Positions 1 through 7,072 of a stretch of 64,000 nucleotides of DNA are shown here, one piece after another. This stretch comes from an uncultured Eubacterium sp. (GTDB taxonomy: Bacteria; Bacillota; Clostridia; Lachnospirales; Lachnospiraceae): NCBI GenBank assembly GCA_947642745.1, contig CANRTU010000015.1, positions 5,571 to 69,570 of the forward strand, written 5' to 3'. The notes beneath the pieces are model-generated. The model was not told the DNA's origin, searched no databases, and saw only the letters and a list, made by a program, of their open reading frames with translations. Each line of letters opens with the position of its first letter. Positions within the stretch are counted from its first letter, which is position 1. The position numbers were made by a program, and so were the translations under genes.

Positions 1-1
1 T

Positions 2-1303
2 TCCGCCAGTGGGATGAAGGGTATCCGGCCGGTTCCGGAACCGGTCCCGTACAGGCTGTTCCAAAACGGCTCTTCGCCGTTTGCGCTCCTCCGTATCCGG
101 ATCCTTCAGTGTACGCTCCGGATAGAAGAGTTTGTTGCGGAACAGCGGTCCGGTTTCTGCCGCAGGCAGCTGTTTTGCTTCTTCCTCATCCGGAAGGCCG
201 GCATCCCCGACCGCCACATCGGAGTTGATGTCCAGAAGCCTCGGCTTTTTTCGCCCGGCTGCCGGAACGGCCCCGAAGAACTTCCGCCTTGCATGCGCAG
301 GACAGCATACCGGCATGACATCTTCCAGCCTGTTGTAACCCTGGTATCCGTCACACTGCGCCAGTCCATGGAATCCCTCCGGGAAGTCCTGTGCGCAGGC
401 TCCTTTACGGCTTGGCTGGTAATCATAGAGGGCGACCGGCGCGGGGCCATCATTTCCGGCTGTATATAACCACATACAGGATGTCTGCTCCGCGGTGCGT
501 CCCTTCTCACGCGGGACCCGGCATGCCGTCTCGTCCGCGTGCGCCAGGTCACGCTTTAAAAGTTCTTCATGCAGCAGGTTATAAACCGGATGGAAACAGT
601 TCCCGGCGACATAAATGATCCGGTTTGCCATGGTTTCCCCTGGCAGTGTAAATCCCGGCTGCTTCATCAGAAACTCCTGCCGGTAATAAGGCATTGCCGG
701 GCCGGTTTTTTCCATCGCGACATATGCGGCCATGGATGGGGAGGCCGGGCTGCGCGGGATCAAAGCGGCAGGCGCTTTGGATCCCGCGAATGTCCCGTCA
801 CCATCTTTTCCGCATTCCGGGCACCGCCATTTTTCCCGGTAATAATGGACCCGTTCCACCTTTGCGGGTGCGATCCGGAGTTCTTCCCGGACAAAAGTTC
901 CGGTTACATACCCCATCAGGGAATTACAGTATGGGCAGTGCTTATCTTCTTCCGGCAGAGGGATTACTTCTCTGCGGACCGGGAGATTTCCATACTGGTC
1001 TTCACGCGCAGCCTTTGCTTTACGTGTTGTTCTTTTATGGCTTTTTACAGCTATTGTCCCTGTTTCTCCGGCTTTTTCATCCTGTTTTGTTTTCCCGCTG
1101 CCCGTACCGAAGAGTTTTCGCCGGAATTCATTAAGTGTTTCCTGAAGACCGGCAATCGTTTCTTTCAGGTCTTTGACCGTTTCTTTCAGATCAGTGATCG
1201 CTTCATCTTTTTCATTTAACCGTTCAGAAAGCGTCCGGATCATAAGATCTTTTTGCTCCGGCTGACCGCGAAAAAGCATGTTCTGCCCTTCTGGATCCAC
1301 CAT
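2..1303 (-). pseudogene. tnpC: IS66 transposase TnpC, 5' part; frame open to the window edge but heavily missense-mutated
   Basis: Absent from the ORF track because it has no stop in the window. Hand translation from ATG 1303 gives a coiled coil, RRKLFG, CPYC..CPEC zinc finger, PYYRQE, HADET, MWLY, CDGYQGY and AHARRKF. Confidence 0.85.
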
Positions 1304-1587
1304 GAATCCCTCCCTCTTTTAAGATACATTTATTGTACCAGAAGGGCGGGACTATCGCAGATACCACCAAAAAACGGACCGGCATTGTGACAGATCAAAA
1401 GGAGCCTTTTTATCTTCAGAAATCAGCGGGTTTGGGAGTTTTTCTGTGAAATTATACACATCATTACGAAGTTGCGCATAACGATCCCCGGGCAGCCATC
1501 CCCATGATCCCGCATCTGTGGATATCTTCCGCCGGAAAGCGGTTCCGGCTATGGAAAAATTTTTTCAGAATCTGCATATCGCGCAAA

Positions 1588-1941
1588 TCAAAAATCTTTG
1601 CCTTTCACCGGCTGTATGGCTTTCGGCTGGTCAATGGAAAGCCCTTCCGTCAGCCAGCGGGACTCCCGCCTGGTCAGAGGCCCGGCTTCAGAAGCGTTGC
1701 GGGGCCACTGGAACTTCCCATTATCCAGGCGCTTCCGCGGGAGCACGAACCCGTCCCGGTCGGAGTAAAGTGCTTTCATCGTATTTTTCTTGCGTCCACA
1801 GAACAGAAAGACTGCATTGGAGAAAGGGTCCGTCTGGAAGTTATCCCGGATGACTGCCATGAGCCCGTCAAAGGATTTCCCCATATCCGTCCGGCCCGTG
1901 ACCAAACAGATTTTCTGTACTCCGGACAGATCGCCGGTCAA
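1588..1941 (-). CDS. tnpB: IS66 accessory protein TnpB, probably degenerate
   Basis: TDM.KSFDGL, FLFCGR, DGF..KRLDNGKFQWP and WL.EGL motifs. Confidence 0.9.
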   Translation of the reverse strand: MTGDLSGVQKICLVTGRTDMGKSFDGLMAVIRDNFQTDPFSNAVFLFCGRKKNTMKALYSDRDGFVLPRKRLDNGKFQWPRNASEAGPLTRRESRWLTEGLSIDQPKAIQPVKGKDF

Positions 1942-2324
1942 AGCTCCCGCAGAGCGGATACCGTATTATAGATCACATCCCTGCCAGCATTATGATTGAC
2001 TGCGGCTTTACAGCCATTAACCATGATCGTCAGTGCTTCACCCAATGATGCGGCATCTGCCGGCCGCGGCCTGATCGGATCAGGCATTTGCGCGTGGGAT
2101 TCCCCGGCAAGGGATAATGGTACGATCCCAGGCGGGGCATCCATCGCCGGTCCGGTTGTCCCCGGTACCACACACGCCTTCTTTCCCAGTCTTGTGACAG
2201 TATTATAAAAAGTACTGATGGAGATATCGTTCTGTTCACACCAGCCGCGGTCAGGGAATCCGCCGCTGCGGCATTCCCGGATCAGTGACAGCCATTCTTC
2301 ATCCGTCCTTCGCTTATTACGCAT
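1938..2324 (-). CDS. tnpA: IS66 accessory protein TnpA
   Basis: EEWLSLIRECRSGG...WCEQNDISISTFY HTH-like N-terminus; GGAGG RBS before ATG 2324; overlaps tnpB by 4 nt. Confidence 0.8.
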   Translation of the reverse strand: MRNKRRTDEEWLSLIRECRSGGFPDRGWCEQNDISISTFYNTVTRLGKKACVVPGTTGPAMDAPPGIVPLSLAGESHAQMPDPIRPRPADAASLGEALTIMVNGCKAAVNHNAGRDVIYNTVSALREL

Positions 2325-2626
2325 AAGTTGTTCCTCCCTAAAGTAGTAAATCACAGTGATTGACTACCTCTGATTACGAAAAGTGGAATGACGCGGCAGC
2401 ATCCAGAACTGAAAACAGATAAAGGAGTCATTTGCTGCTTATTTACTGTATTATCGCAGATTTGAAACAACATTTGGAACGGTATGTTATTCATCGCTTA
2501 CTCTTTATCTATAGTTTTGCAACCCCCTTTATTTATAACACAGACCACTTTTATTGTAACATAGGGGTTTCTTACATCTGAAGAAGTTCCCTTTTCCTGC
2601 AAATCAGAAGATTATTATTGTGACAC

Positions 2627-2671
2627 AAAAAAATTCTGCCTGGCAAAAATTAATTTACCAGACAGAATTTT
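2627..2671 (-). terminator. Rho-independent terminator of the large surface-protein gene
   Basis: AAAATTCTGTCTGGTAAA / TTTGCCAGGCAGAATTTT stem followed by a T run on the minus strand. Confidence 0.8.
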
Positions 2672-2707
2672 CAATTGAAATAGTTATCGAAAATTAATTT
2701 AATACTA

Positions 2708-5700
2708 TTATTTTTTAATAGTAAGCTCTACTGGAGCTTTCTTTTCAATAACTACCTCCTTATTATTCTTATCTTTTACTTTAAGAGTCGCTGTTACTGT
2801 TACTGTTACTTTTGTTCCTGACTTCACATCACTATCTATAATAGCTACACTACCATCATCCTTTACCTTCAGAACCTTCTCATTGGCAGATTCATATTTA
2901 TAACTTAATGTACCTGTTATGTTATCTTTTACAGTAACTCCCCCTGCTTTCTCTAAGTCATATACTGTTACAAAGTTGAATGTTGTTGCAACACCTGATG
3001 TAATATTAACATCTTTAGCTTTTAATTTACCCAACTCGGTAGCAAGATAGTCGGAATAGATATTTGTACTTGTCACAGTTTCATTCTCAAGTTTTACATC
3101 ACATCCATCTGTACTTACTACCAGATCTTCTAATGTCTTATTACTGTCTTTCTCCTGCTTAATAACCACTTCTACCTTATCTTTTTCGCTTACGATATTG
3201 CCAATAGGCTTTGACTCGGTTGTTCCACGCACTTCTATAGAATTAGCTCTCTTAACAAGAACGTTCTCCATAGTACCTTTATTAACTAATACCATCTTGC
3301 TGGCTGCATCAAGTATAAGGTTGTTAATTTCACCACTTACACCATTCTCAATTTTGGTACCACCACCGTCTGTAACAGTGAGTTTTTTAACCGTTCCATA
3401 ATTATAGAATGTGTTTTGTGAAAGATCTGCAATCCTTAATTCATCAATACTAATAGGATTAACACCAGTATCGCTACCAACCTGAAGGTCAGCATTTGGT
3501 ATATTAACGGTTACTATACCTTTTTTAGTTGGATCATTCTCATCTGACAGAATTGTAATTCCATTTCTACCGCCCTTTGAATTGATAATCTTCAGCGTAC
3601 CTGTATCAGCATAAGAAGCTGCTAAAGTTCCTCTCACCTTCAGCTCATTACCAGCCAGATCAATCGTAACTGGACGTTTAATATTTAACGTAGTTTTTTC
3701 TGGAATTGTGTAGTCAGTGCCTAACACAATTGTACGATATTTTTCATTATCCAGCGCTGCCTGAAGATCACTTAAAACACCACCTGCAAATTCGCCGGAA
3801 ACATTACCCCAGACATCATCGTTTGATGTATCAATTCCTTCGTATACCACAGCGGAATCACCTGTAACATTGGCATCATTGGTTCCATATTTATATGGAA
3901 GCGTAATTCTGCCTGTATCTCCTAACGTATTACCACTTACAGCTTTAATTGCAGAAGAAATACTGATAGACACTGGTTTTCCTACTTTCAGGCTAAAGTT
4001 ATTATTTTTACCAAGATCAATAGTTACACTATCAAAAGTATCTGCTTTGCCATTACTGTATCCTTCAATAAATCTGGAAACAGTTGCTGTCCTTGGCACT
4101 TCAACACCACTAACTGTATAGTTACTGTTAACCAAGGCACTGCTACCTAATTCTGTGTTAGACAGAGATTCGCTATATTTAATAAATAAATACCTGCCTT
4201 CTCCCTTGGTTTCACCGCTACTAATCAGACTACGTGTTCTGAATCTTTCGTAATTAGGTGTATCACTTACAGCTGCCCATACTACATGCAGACCGGTAGA
4301 ATCTACAACTCCTGCCTGTTCAAACGGGAAGCTTCTGGAACTAATGGTGTTCTCAACATCATCCGTAAGCGCAGTTACTGTTAATTCCCACTTACCTGCT
4401 GATAATGTCTTCTCTGGTAAGATTCTGATCCATGTATCATCTTCATACAGCCAGTCCTGAACAGCACCAAGAATTGTTTCTTTTGTTTCTGTATTGTAAA
4501 ATCTTGCTGTCGGCAGCGGAATACCACCACTGACACGCTGCTGGTTCTGACTCGGTGTAAACCAGTGACCATCCATCTGATTATTAGCAACCCGAAGCTG
4601 AACCGGCTCGTTAATCTGTACATGATAATACTTACCTACCTGAACACAATCAATTACTTCAGGACTCGTGTTATCCGGACTCAGCATCTTCTCATATCCG
4701 GTTGCTGTATTATCTGTAAGAGACATTACAATATCTTTGCTGTTTTCCTGTCCATTTTCATAATTGAATAATCTGTTCTTATCTACCTTCAGCTGGAATC
4801 TGTGATTCTTATAATAATTGTCACCAGTTGAATCAGTGTCAAAAATATATGTCCAGTCTTCTGTCAGTTCTACAATATATTCACCATCTACACTGGTCTT
4901 TCTGATAGTAATAGGATTTACTCCGGTTCCGTTCGGAGCACCACTAACTTTAGTTTCTACAAGTTCGAAATCATTCTTTCTTGCATCGTACATCTCTAAC
5001 CGGATCAACGGCTCTTTATCTGTTAATAAGCTCCTTAAATCATCTGATCCTAAGTCTTTCACTGGCTTGTTTACTACATTAGTATTACCTTTTGCAACCG
5101 CAATATCACCATTGAATTTAACAAGCCACTGCTCAGGAGACTGTACTGTAACAGTTCCAGCCGGTTCATCTTTGTTATCTGCTACATTGAAGTAAAATGT
5201 CTGTGTATGAATTACATTCATTTTAGCATCTGTTGCAGCTGCCCAGTCACCGATATCGGATACCTGCAGGGAATACAGATTATTTCCCTTGAAATACGTA
5301 GGTTTGCCATTGTCATCTGTTCCGAGTGTAATATATACTATATTACGCTCTGTAGCTTTATCAGATACTTCAGCTGTTGCACCGTTACTGAAGTCAGTCA
5401 GCTTCTGTCCGCTGATTCTGTAATTATCTTCATTTTCTGCTGAATAAATATTCCCAGCATTGTCCATGCCGTCTTTCAGAACCGCTTCAGAGAAAGTCAC
5501 TTTCAGCATTCTCATGCTTGGCTTTCCTGCCTTGTTTACAGCTTCCACATTGTATACGGCCGGCTGTGTTGCGTCTACCAGTCTGTCATATACAGTGTTA
5601 GATGTTGCTACATTATAGCGTTTGTCCTTAAATGTCATTTTGATTTCTGAATTGTCCCGTAAAGGTTTTGCCATCAGAATCTGAAGTGTTTTATTCGGTT

Positions 5701-7072
5701 CGCTGCCTGTAGATGCGTCGCCCTGAAGAATCGTAGCAACCTCACATGGGTTTGCATAGTTAACACCGTCTTTTACTTCGATCTCAACCTTATTTGCATT
5801 CAGCTTACCATCGCTGTTCAGGAACTCTTCCGCTTTTACTTCTTTATTGAAGTATGCAATAATACGGTCAGCTGTCTGAACAGTCATATGTGTTACCATT
5901 GCGCCCTGCTGAGCGTCAATTTCACCAGGATTTGGTGTCAGAAGAATACTTGTGGTAGACTTCAGACCAAGGATATCGCCATGTCCCAGCGCTGTTACAA
6001 CTTCACCTGTGATAACTGCTGTCGCATTGGATGTCAGGTTTTCAGATGTGAACATAACTGTAGCCACACCGTTACGTACTGCAACGGACTGTCCACCTAC
6101 ACTACCACGGGTTGTTGAGAATTTTACTTCCACGCCGTTTAAGTCTTCACACAGTTTACCTGTTCCATCATAAATCTTGAAACGAACCTGTGTATTGGAG
6201 CTGTTGTCAGCCTTCAGGTATGTAGCGTCGCTTTCCATAACTGCTACGTACTGATCTTCTGTAGTCAGTGATGTAAACTTACCTGTCAGCGCTCCCTGTA
6301 CTTTGCCGCCGCATGCCAGACCAGTAGCTGTCATTACATAGTCCTGACCCAGTTTCGCGCTGTTTGCCAGTGTCAGGGTAGCTACCAGTCCGTTTTCGGA
6401 AAGGATTGCGTCTTCTACTGCCACTTCAGCTGCTGTAGCGCCTTCCGCAACGTCTTCAGCGATCTTGAAGTTATCTTTGGATACGCTGTCTACCTTCTGG
6501 TTGAACACTACTTCTACAGTTGTTCTTGCCAGAGATTTAACAGTTGTCAGCGCCAGATCGCCATCTACCGGTGTTGTCGGATCTGTTGTACCGGTCGGTG
6601 TTGTTGCGCCTGTCGGATCTGTTGTTCCGGTCGGTGTTGTCGCATCTGTCGGATCTGTTACTGTTGTCGGATCTGTAGGTGTCGTGGTCTTAGGTTTAAC
6701 TGTTACTTTTGTCTTTAATACCTTCTGGTATTTGCTCTTTGCCTTCTTGGCAGCTTTACGGCTCGGGGACTGGATTGTTACACTGATTGTTGCTGTCCCC
6801 TTCTTCACTCCCTTAATTGTGAAAGCCTTGTTGTTTTTCTTTTTCGTTGTGCAGACTTTCTTTTTATTGGTAGCTACTTTCGTAATCTTCCAATCGGAGT
6901 TGTTTTTCTTTAATTTGAGTGTCTTTGTATTGCCTACTTTGACAGTCGCTGTCTTGGCGATGCCAACGGTGGCTGCCGCTGATGCTGTCATCAAATTAGC
7001 TGATGGCAGTGAGAATGCCATTGCCGCAGATAATGATACCGCCAGCACTCTCGTCATGAAACTCTTTTTCAT
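2708..7072 (-). CDS. Large secreted surface protein, S-layer-like, with tandem Ig-like domains
   Basis: Sec signal peptide (MKKSFMTRVLAVSLSAAMAF..ASA), Lys-rich N-terminal Ig-like domain, TDPT linker, repeated V.FN/FSE.V...NY Ig-like modules, GGAGG RBS. No SLH, CWB2 or LPXTG motif seen. Confidence 0.75.
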   Translation of the reverse strand: MKKSFMTRVLAVSLSAAMAFSLPSANLMTASAAATVGIAKTATVKVGNTKTLKLKKNNSDWKITKVATNKKKVCTTKKKNNKAFTIKGVKKGTATISVTIQSPSRKAAKKAKSKYQKVLKTKVTVKPKTTTPTDPTTVTDPTDATTPTGTTDPTGATTPTGTTDPTTPVDGDLALTTVKSLARTTVEVVFNQKVDSVSKDNFKIAEDVAEGATAAEVAVEDAILSENGLVATLTLANSAKLGQDYVMTATGLACGGKVQGALTGKFTSLTTEDQYVAVMESDATYLKADNSSNTQVRFKIYDGTGKLCEDLNGVEVKFSTTRGSVGGQSVAVRNGVATVMFTSENLTSNATAVITGEVVTALGHGDILGLKSTTSILLTPNPGEIDAQQGAMVTHMTVQTADRIIAYFNKEVKAEEFLNSDGKLNANKVEIEVKDGVNYANPCEVATILQGDASTGSEPNKTLQILMAKPLRDNSEIKMTFKDKRYNVATSNTVYDRLVDATQPAVYNVEAVNKAGKPSMRMLKVTFSEAVLKDGMDNAGNIYSAENEDNYRISGQKLTDFSNGATAEVSDKATERNIVYITLGTDDNGKPTYFKGNNLYSLQVSDIGDWAAATDAKMNVIHTQTFYFNVADNKDEPAGTVTVQSPEQWLVKFNGDIAVAKGNTNVVNKPVKDLGSDDLRSLLTDKEPLIRLEMYDARKNDFELVETKVSGAPNGTGVNPITIRKTSVDGEYIVELTEDWTYIFDTDSTGDNYYKNHRFQLKVDKNRLFNYENGQENSKDIVMSLTDNTATGYEKMLSPDNTSPEVIDCVQVGKYYHVQINEPVQLRVANNQMDGHWFTPSQNQQRVSGGIPLPTARFYNTETKETILGAVQDWLYEDDTWIRILPEKTLSAGKWELTVTALTDDVENTISSRSFPFEQAGVVDSTGLHVVWAAVSDTPNYERFRTRSLISSGETKGEGRYLFIKYSESLSNTELGSSALVNSNYTVSGVEVPRTATVSRFIEGYSNGKADTFDSVTIDLGKNNNFSLKVGKPVSISISSAIKAVSGNTLGDTGRITLPYKYGTNDANVTGDSAVVYEGIDTSNDDVWGNVSGEFAGGVLSDLQAALDNEKYRTIVLGTDYTIPEKTTLNIKRPVTIDLAGNELKVRGTLAASYADTGTLKIINSKGGRNGITILSDENDPTKKGIVTVNIPNADLQVGSDTGVNPISIDELRIADLSQNTFYNYGTVKKLTVTDGGGTKIENGVSGEINNLILDAASKMVLVNKGTMENVLVKRANSIEVRGTTESKPIGNIVSEKDKVEVVIKQEKDSNKTLEDLVVSTDGCDVKLENETVTSTNIYSDYLATELGKLKAKDVNITSGVATTFNFVTVYDLEKAGGVTVKDNITGTLSYKYESANEKVLKVKDDGSVAIIDSDVKSGTKVTVTVTATLKVKDKNNKEVVIEKKAPVELTIKK
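6568..6690 (-). repeat. Coding tandem repeat forming a Thr/Pro/Asp linker
   Basis: TDPTTVTDPTDATTPTGTTDPTGATTPTGTTDPTTP; repeated GTCGGATCTGT units in the DNA. Confidence 0.85.

What the first reader, a model, noticed from the sequence alone, without database searches (positions are those of the whole stretch)
1..2501. IS66 copy with one-directional T>C/A>G, CCGG-creating hypermutation (reverse-RIP-like)
Seen: tnpC stays open for about 434 codons with no stop or frameshift, and CCGG occurs 11 times in the first 300 bp by hand count (roughly 2-3 expected from composition). Compared with IS66 motifs as I remember them, conserved residues are changed in one direction: Leu>Pro (QPEQK, SPASPS, KQPG, DFPEGF), Trp>Arg (MANRII, PVRDRFRNRPD), Gln>Arg (ACRVP), Tyr>Cys (SCMWLY), Ser/Glu>Gly (FGTGSGK), and TDMGKS and VLPRKRL in TnpB. 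Almost all are TGG>CGG, CTG>CCG, CAG>CGG or other A>G changes. This runs opposite to the usual bacterial GC>AT bias and to fungal RIP. Inference: either a context-specific mutator (for example Vsr-like T:G repair coupled to a CCGG methylase, adenine deamination or loss of mismatch repair) acts on unselected DNA, or a process that inactivates mobile elements by point mutation.
Basis: partly seen in the sequence, partly recalled or inferred. Interest (0 to 1): 0.8.

Follow-up and report, generated by a model that had tools for sequence, protein, structure and literature searches.

The report
T-to-C drive erodes insertion sequences
In a mouse-gut bacterium, a jumping gene has had about one in seven of its A/T letters turned into G/C regardless of damage to its proteins, following a sequence preference seen across the host's whole genome, likely because a repair enzyme that resolves T:G mismatches towards C is amplified when copies of the element recombine.

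Summary
Against 8 relatives, 214 of 261 private substitutions in this IS66 are T:A>C:G and 21 are C:G>T:A. They occur on both strands, at similar rates at synonymous and non-synonymous sites, with no frameshift. Contigs from four independent studies carry it.

It is neither CCGG-specific nor purely IS-specific. The preferred context is T-N-G (best CTNGG) plus TGCR. The same TNG>CNG preference saturates synonymous sites genome-wide (76-99% C), appears across the family, and predicts the IS rates (rho 0.73). Four other decayed IS3 copies show it; an intact one does not. mutS and mutL are intact, and a vsr lies beside a C5 methyltransferase predicted to recognise CGCG.

Host mutation alone leaves an excess: T>C runs about 5-fold faster per transversion than in non-IS repeats, and the IS gains CGCG (17 sites) in a genome that purges it. 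The element appears to exist in at least two mosaic copies.

Best reading (0.5): Vsr-type T:G>C:G repair, amplified by GC-biased conversion between copies. Rival (0.27): plain context-dependent mutation of dead foreign DNA. A RIP-like defence is unlikely. The scan noted similar IS patterns in three other genomes. Mechanism untested.

The parts
1..2501 (-). IS66 element, window part; the whole element is 2975 bp and ends 473 bp left of window base 1 (G000:C15:5097-8071). No 8-bp target duplication is recognisable.
2480..2501 (-). Left terminal inverted repeat (starts GTAAG), 21 of 22 nt matching the right repeat at C15:5097-5118
1938..2324 (-). tnpA-position ORF, 128 aa, no Pfam hit; AT>GC at 17/65 synonymous and 16/127 non-synonymous sites
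1588..1941 (-). tnpB (PF05717); AT>GC at 9/40 synonymous and 13/131 non-synonymous sites
1..1303 (-). tnpC transposase (PF03050, PF13005), first 434 of 567 codons; AT>GC at 41/257 synonymous and 85/594 non-synonymous sites over the whole gene; stop read through; only in-frame deletions (15 and 6 bp)
2708..7072 (-). Flanking 1454-aa secreted surface-protein-like gene (label inferred, no Pfam hit), AT-rich; does not share the CGCG gain (1 CGCG against 13 TGCG/CGCA). Context only.

Best explanation
This is a decayed IS66 that has accumulated one-way T:A>C:G changes in the same sequence contexts that dominate its host's synonymous sites, likely through strand-blind Vsr-type repair that resolves T:G mismatches to C:G, and likely amplified by gene conversion between near-identical copies of the element. 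Shown: (1) the direction and near-neutrality of the changes; (2) the genome-wide and family-wide TNG>CNG preference, best in CTNGG; (3) other decayed IS copies in the genome carry the same signature; (4) vsr, mutS and mutL are present. Inferred: (5) the repair enzyme is Vsr; (6) the TGCR component comes from the vsr beside the predicted CGCG methyltransferase, while methyl-C loss or restriction avoidance purges CGCG from single-copy DNA; (7) heteroduplexes between IS copies supply extra T:G mismatches, so T>C alleles spread and C>T alleles are removed, which ruins the transposase as a by-product rather than as a dedicated defence.
For: Synonymous sites in 1618 ORFs: C fraction 0.76-0.99 before AG, CG and TG (CGA aside, 0.69-0.73), against 0.09-0.60 in cold contexts; -1 C and +3 G are strongest. 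Ribosomal-cluster genes show it too. IS T>C rate per context tracks that equilibrium (Spearman 0.73, 59 contexts). YAG is 0.80-0.98 in 18 of 18 genus and 3 of 3 other family genomes sampled, and 0.18-0.33 in 6 of 10 genomes from other families. Other IS3 copies, T>C:C>T: C3 24:7, C76 25:9, C18 56:10, C84 19:7; intact C26 8:15. Excess over the host pattern: hot-context T>C per transversion is 54 (IS66), 50 (C18) and 74 (C3) against 11 in a non-IS repeat family, and cold-context T>C is 6.9 against 0.8. TGCG>CGCG is 9/20 in the IS against a 5-7% synonymous equilibrium (p=9e-7) and 0/118 in four non-IS families. Two copies of one IS3 differ 46 C-vs-T to 4. Multi-copy signs: IS depth is 1.2-1.7 times core depth in 4 of 4 runs; X1 shows alleles at 13 of 26.9 while its core rows are single-allele; X14 has 3 differences in 20 kb of core but 37 in 2.3 kb of listed IS contigs. 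Twenty mutated TnpC variants form three lineages sharing 49 AT>GC-type changes; 38 of 66 informative pairs are incompatible; the window copy shares tracts and one transversion with a sister lineage. vsr at C29 lies 2.6 kb from a C5 methyltransferase and restriction enzyme. That methyltransferase is in 0 of 21 congeners, and G000 has the lowest CGCG density of the genus genomes sampled (0.1/kb against 1.65-7.8). Its best plasmid match (56%) belongs to a system predicted to cut CGCG (PMC3632715, passages). E. coli Vsr repairs T:G in CTWGG and can stimulate CTAGG>CCAGG (PMC2715241, passages).
Against: No enzyme activity or methylome was measured. The TNG bias is also present in 6 sampled family genomes with no Vsr hit. 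Only one copy of this IS66 is in the assembly, so copy number rests on depth. Mosaicism in collapsed short-read contigs can be chimeric. The window's apparent tracts lose some T>C-type alleles as well as gaining them. Segregating variants are 63 up against 4 down, which a simple mutation bias predicts equally well. Four copies of an intact IS66 in congener G014, which has vsr, vary mostly GC>AT (12 of 19 sites, 3 AT>GC; my reading). Near-identical tandem duplicates next to the IS have no CGCG. No clean single-copy dead gene was available as a control, and the non-IS repeat baseline may be under selection or mis-polarised.
Confidence: 0.5

Rival explanations
1. Plain amelioration: the host has a genome-wide context-dependent T>C mutation bias (same likely enzyme), and a dead, AT-rich foreign element simply drifts towards it with no role for conversion. 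CGCG survives in the IS because untranscribed DNA loses methyl-C more slowly, or because selection against CGCG acts only on functional DNA.
For: The rho=0.73 match to synonymous equilibrium. The non-IS repeat family shows THG 12/39 and TGG 17/63 T>C. In the IS3 copies cold contexts are balanced or AT-ward. Genes in the ribosomal cluster have 0 CGCG at the listed sites. Segregating variants are 63 up against 4 down.
Against: It does not explain the roughly 5-fold higher T>C per transversion, or cold-context T>C 70/1109 against C>T 14/628. CGCG is depleted equally in intergenic DNA of all orientations. Going from 5% to about 50% CGCG would need a very large protection factor (inference).
Confidence: 0.27
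2. A dedicated defence that recognises repeats or IS DNA and edits it A>G/T>C (reverse-RIP, or an adenine deaminase).
For: Five decayed IS copies of two families carry the signature. The IS is the top CGCG outlier among all 2-kb windows of the genome. Core-gene differences private to the window lineage lean GC>AT (8 against 4) while IS variants are 22:1 the other way (the core polarity is by majority only and outgroups disagree at 2 of the 8).
Against: The context preference is that of the host's own genes and of the whole family. Changes are spread evenly along the element, lie on both strands and accumulate gradually across lineages. The intact IS3 and G014's IS66 copies are untouched. No candidate editing enzyme was looked for by name.
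Confidence: 0.08
3. The element decayed in another, GC-richer host and was imported later, by recombination or by mobilisation in trans.
For: Terminal repeats are intact. A genome of another family has the matching profile, with YGCG 0.96 and YGCA 1.0 (G029). The closest congener tolerates CGCG.
Against: Variants at 1-2% distance in this species' samples still differ by T>C (22 of 26 polarised). Unrelated IS3 copies here show the same pattern, including TGCG>CGCG. The flanks have the host's composition. None of 95 aligned relatives shows the drive.
Confidence: 0.08
4. Loss of mismatch repair (mutator lineage).
For: Mismatch-repair mutants of several bacteria are A:T>G:C-rich (recalled, not checked here).
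Against: MutS (893-aa frame) and MutL (753-aa frame) are intact with their motifs. There are no frameshifts beside 181 AT>GC changes in the three ORFs. The bias is family-wide.
Confidence: 0.03

Closest known systems
E. coli Dcm/Vsr very-short-patch repair and its effect on oligonucleotide frequencies (PMC2715241 and PMC4687349, passages; Merkl et al. 1992 seen only as a reference entry)
   Same: T:G resolved to C:G without strand discrimination; CTAG strongly depleted (0.05/kb); best context C-T-N-G-G; vsr next to a C5 methyltransferase.
   Different: Here the bias is near saturation at all TNG synonymous sites, spans a family, includes TGCR, and visibly wrecks whole transposases. The adjacent methyltransferase is not Dcm-like and is predicted to recognise CGCG. 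Eight of 10 congener vsr loci show no methyltransferase motif within 1.5 kb.
GC-biased gene conversion in bacteria (Lassalle et al. 2015, PMC4450053, abstract and outline)
   Same: GC-ward substitution linked to recombination that mimics or overrides selection.
   Different: That work is statistical, across genes and strains. Here the drive would act between paralogous IS copies, is strongly context-specific and has a candidate enzyme. Conversion between IS copies is itself mentioned as a possibility in PMC3914690 (passage), without a GC bias in the passages read.
Fungal repeat-induced point mutation (recalled)
   Same: Dense one-way transitions on both strands of transposons, damaging their genes.
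   Different: Opposite direction, creates no stops, gradual, and shares its context with the host's single-copy genes.
Amelioration of horizontally acquired DNA (recalled)
   Same: Foreign DNA drifts towards the host's composition.
   Different: The IS overshoots the host (CGCG 5.7/kb against 0.27/kb; GC 0.52 against 0.46) and changes about 5-fold faster than the non-IS repeat baseline.

Membership tests
IS66 | TnpC DDE transposase with zinc finger | tested here: met
   PF03050 E=8e-43, PF13005
IS66 | TnpB accessory gene upstream | tested here: met
   PF05717 E=2e-32
IS66 | TnpA upstream of tnpB | tested here: inconclusive
   ORF in the expected place and conserved in relatives, no Pfam hit
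IS66 | Terminal inverted repeats starting GTAA (recalled) | tested here: met
   23-nt arms, 96% complementary
IS66 | 8-bp target duplication (recalled) | tested here: not met
   Flanks printed do not match; this can follow age or rearrangement and does not bar the family label for the genes
VSP (Vsr) repair drive | vsr gene near a C5 methyltransferase | tested here: met
VSP (Vsr) repair drive | T>C enrichment centred on the methyltransferase site | tested here: inconclusive
   TGCR fits a predicted CGCG enzyme; no CCNGG/CCWGG methyltransferase was identified for the larger TNG component, and the second C5 enzyme is in a prophage with unknown site
VSP (Vsr) repair drive | Vsr nicks T:G mismatches in these contexts | not testable with these tools
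   needs biochemistry
GC-biased gene conversion | Locus has recombining partners | tested here: inconclusive
   Depth 1.2-1.7x, split alleles and mosaic variants, but collapsed contigs can be chimeric
GC-biased gene conversion | GC-ward substitution indifferent to protein damage | tested here: met
   tnpC 16.0% synonymous against 14.3% non-synonymous, p=0.53; all three ORFs 18.5% against 13.4%, p=0.03
GC-biased gene conversion | Single-copy neutral DNA lacks the excess | tested here: inconclusive
   Non-IS repeats and the prophage lack it, but neither is a clean dead single-copy control
Fungal RIP | C>T direction | tested here: not met
   214 T>C against 21 C>T
Fungal RIP | Signature confined to repeats | tested here: not met
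   Same context bias at single-copy synonymous sites
Mismatch-repair-deficient mutator | mutS or mutL lost or broken | tested here: not met
Mismatch-repair-deficient mutator | Excess homopolymer indels (recalled) | tested here: not met
   No frameshift in the three ORFs

The most novel reading that the evidence does not exclude
Lachnospiraceae carry a family-wide, enzyme-specific T:G>C:G drive (TNG>CNG) strong enough to set their codon usage (Gln CAG 91%, Leu CTG 62%, Pro CCG 54%). When an insertion sequence multiplies, conversion between its own copies turns that drive into a self-limiting ratchet that destroys the whole family without a single stop codon: a bacterial, reverse-direction functional analogue of RIP and a named mechanism for GC-biased gene conversion.
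Probability: 0.3. Interest if true: 0.85.

Novelty: new variant of a known kind. Interest (0 to 1): 0.6.

Why it matters
Why bacterial GC content sits above what mutation predicts, and whether GC-biased gene conversion is real in bacteria, are open questions. Here a context-specific GC-ward drive is visible at synonymous sites across a dominant gut family and, magnified, in transposons. It comes with a candidate enzyme and an internal marker (CGCG, lost in single-copy DNA and gained in IS copies), which makes the mechanism directly testable. It also means full-length, stop-free transposases in these genomes can be dead, so open frames overstate IS activity. I found no paper describing this in the library searches made; the library lacks most subscription and older papers, and no supplements were read.

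Tried and rejected
Assembly artefact: rejected. CCGG-specific process: rejected, because contexts are TNG and TGCR. Codon-optimality explanation of the synonymous bias: unlikely, as it holds on both strands and across codon boundaries and in ribosomal-cluster genes. Treating the IS differences as strain polymorphism: doubtful, since depth and X14 suggest paralogues. A faster overall rate in the IS than at core sites: not shown for X1, X2 and X6 (IS 1.0-1.4% against core 0.2-0.5% of all sites). Prophage control: 27 T>C against 34 C>T, no drive, but mostly divergence under selection elsewhere. C40 recombinase pseudogene (11 CGCG in 3 kb): relatives only about 73% identical, not polarised. C11, C48 and C81 IS3 remnants look similar in translation but were not counted; the C11 analysis stopped on a script error. 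HhH-GPD glycosylases are in 41 of 41 genomes, so uninformative. NucS gave only a marginal 40-residue hit. No PF01609 or PF01610 match in G000 (genome 88% complete). No second IS66 copy in the assembly or viral contigs. Polarity rests on majority consensus only, with no branch-by-branch assignment on a tree. The methyltransferase's likeness to M.BepI is recalled, not aligned; its restriction enzyme was not aligned to the plasmid one. PMC8410138 (passages) held nothing relevant; PMC5367854 (passages) confirms CGCG enzymes methylate the outer C; PMC6116569 (passages) shows Vsr enzymes acting on CTGG/CCGG and other substrates.

Full report
Setting. The window is G000:C15:5571-69570, from a 4.1-Mb, 111-contig assembly, 88% complete. 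Named relatives of the element are mostly Lachnospiraceae, and the runs holding it are mainly mouse gut metagenomes. The host's family is inferred from these, not given. The finding is an IS66 of 2975 bp, C15:5097-8071, with intact terminal repeats, tnpB and tnpC Pfam hits, and no recognisable target duplication.

Observation. At 2748 polarisable sites, 214 of 261 changes private to this copy are T:A>C:G, 21 are the reverse and 26 are transversions; seven relatives give 268:254. Both strands are hit and changes are spread along the element. In tnpC 41/257 synonymous and 85/594 non-synonymous AT sites changed, whereas GC>AT changes in the three ORFs are mostly synonymous (10/319 against 3/705). 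The few C>T changes therefore probably date from the active period (inference). There are no frameshifts. T>C and A>G cannot create stops, which explains the open frame. None of 95 aligned relatives shows the skew. Four runs from four studies carry the element at the same flanks.

Context. Rates using present-day flanks are T[A/C/T]G 69/173, TGG 36/116, TGCA 10/18, TGCG 18/47, TGCY 11/68 and other 70/1109; C>T in other contexts is 14/628. CCGG is one product among several.

The host has the same preference. Synonymous sites in 1618 ORFs are 76-99% C before AG, CG and TG (CGA aside), highest with a preceding C and a following G, on both strands. IS rates track this table (rho 0.73, 59 contexts). 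The bias is in 18 of 18 genus and 3 of 3 other family genomes sampled (14-20 kb each), in 3 of 10 genomes from other families (one more intermediate), and absent from 6. A non-coding repeat family shows it near equilibrium. Four decayed IS3 copies in G000 show it, while an intact IS3 does not. Much of the 'hypermutation' is thus the host's drive exposed on DNA freed from selection.

What the host pattern does not explain. G000 avoids CGCG (0.27/kb, observed/expected 0.09; 5-7% C at synonymous YGCG; equally low in intergenic DNA). Yet the IS holds 17 CGCG and is the top outlier among 2-kb windows. TGCG>CGCG is 9/20 with ancestral flanks against 0/118 in non-IS families. Relative to transversions, hot-context T>C is about 5 times and cold-context T>C about 8 times that of the non-IS repeat. 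Two copies of one IS3 differ 46:4 in one direction. IS variants are 22 T>C to 1 C>T among 26 polarised rows (28 IS rows of the 40 shown, 151 in all). Core rows private to the window lineage lean the other way, 8:4 (17 such rows of the 40 shown, 140 in all; majority polarity only, outgroups mixed).

Copies and conversion. IS depth is 1.61, 1.46, 1.66 and 1.23 times core depth. X1 shows two alleles at about single-copy depth each, while its core rows are single-allele. X14 is nearly identical in core (3 differences in 20 kb) but differs at 37 places in 2.3 kb of listed IS contigs. About 100 contig ends of G000 fall into four shared-repeat groups, so high-copy repeats are unassembled. Twenty mutated TnpC variants (15 of 26 members of one cluster, 4 of 4 of another, and one singleton) form three lineages sharing 49 AT>GC-type changes. 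Sixty-three more segregate against 4 reverse ones, and 38 of 66 informative pairs are incompatible. The window copy shares an N-terminal tract with a sister lineage, and X14 has the window's alleles there. These data fit recombination between copies but may partly be assembly chimeras. Against a universal effect, four intact IS66 copies in congener G014 vary mostly GC>AT.

Candidate enzymes. mutS and mutL are intact. One vsr lies 2.6 kb from a Type II C5 methyltransferase and restriction enzyme on C29. This methyltransferase is absent from 21 congeners at E<=1e-20 and present in one other family genome that is also CGCG-poor. Its best plasmid match belongs to a system predicted to recognise CGCG. 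Vsr hits occur in 16 of 24 family genomes and 1 of 16 others, often without an adjacent methyltransferase. The TNG bias also occurs in genomes without a hit, so Vsr as its cause is inferred from the motif's likeness to E. coli VSP repair, not shown.

Verdict. This is a real, strong, directional decay. The most likely account is Vsr-type T:G>C:G repair, genome-wide in this family, amplified in IS families by biased conversion between copies (0.5). Plain context-dependent mutation is the main rival (0.27). Both ingredients are known, so it is a new variant of a known kind; the scale, the family-wide TNG signature and the CGCG contrast were not found in the searches made. I had put conversion at 10% before looking at earlier scan notes; three notes on other genomes proposed it, which prompted the copy-number and mosaic tests. 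They are leads, not support.

Noticed in passing
whole genome G000 and loci L149-L171: Family-wide synonymous bias TNG>CNG (C fraction up to 0.99), shaping codon usage (CAG 0.91, CTG 0.62, CCG 0.54, CGA 0.02, CTA 0.02); absent in several other families of the order.
   Followed up: partly
L059:6655-10999 (G000:C29): Type II restriction-modification pair with a vsr and a Nudix gene nearby, predicted CGCG specificity. The genes look recently acquired (unameliorated) although genome-wide CGCG loss is deep, and they themselves contain CGCG sites.
   Followed up: partly
G000:C3:1749-3449, C18:60-1200, C84:14600-15761, C76:5960-6463, C11:2300-3500, C48:19258-19440, C81:283-471: Further IS3-family copies with the same Leu>Pro, Trp>Arg type changes; the first four were counted, the last three only seen in translation.
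   Followed up: partly
L042-L051: Eight of 10 vsr loci from congeners have no C5 methyltransferase motif within 1.5 kb (orphan vsr genes).
   Followed up: no
L001:2-1080 and 2629-3707: 99.4%-identical tandem duplicate of a 330-aa gene (transposase-like label recalled, no Pfam hit), GC-richer than its paralogue on C39 (105 C-vs-T against 29).
   Followed up: partly
G000:C40:21800-24800 (L142): Degenerate recombinase/mobile-element region, second-highest CGCG density in the genome; origin of the sites unresolved.
   Followed up: partly
G000 C3, C7, C23, C28, C40, C60, C79, C99: Dispersed roughly 550-bp apparently non-coding repeat family (10 copies analysed), very CCGG-rich; function unknown.
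   Followed up: partly
whole genome G000: Strong avoidance of GTCGAC (0.09), ATCGAT (0.15), GAGCTC and CTCGAG, suggesting past restriction systems.
   Followed up: no
window 2474-3030: The 3' end of the large surface-protein-like gene and its spacer differ by about 2% among runs X1, X2 and X6, well above core genes.
   Followed up: no
L060 (G000:C3:82000-97000): Prophage carrying a C5 and an N4/N6 methyltransferase; no T>C drive against its closest viral relative.
   Followed up: partly
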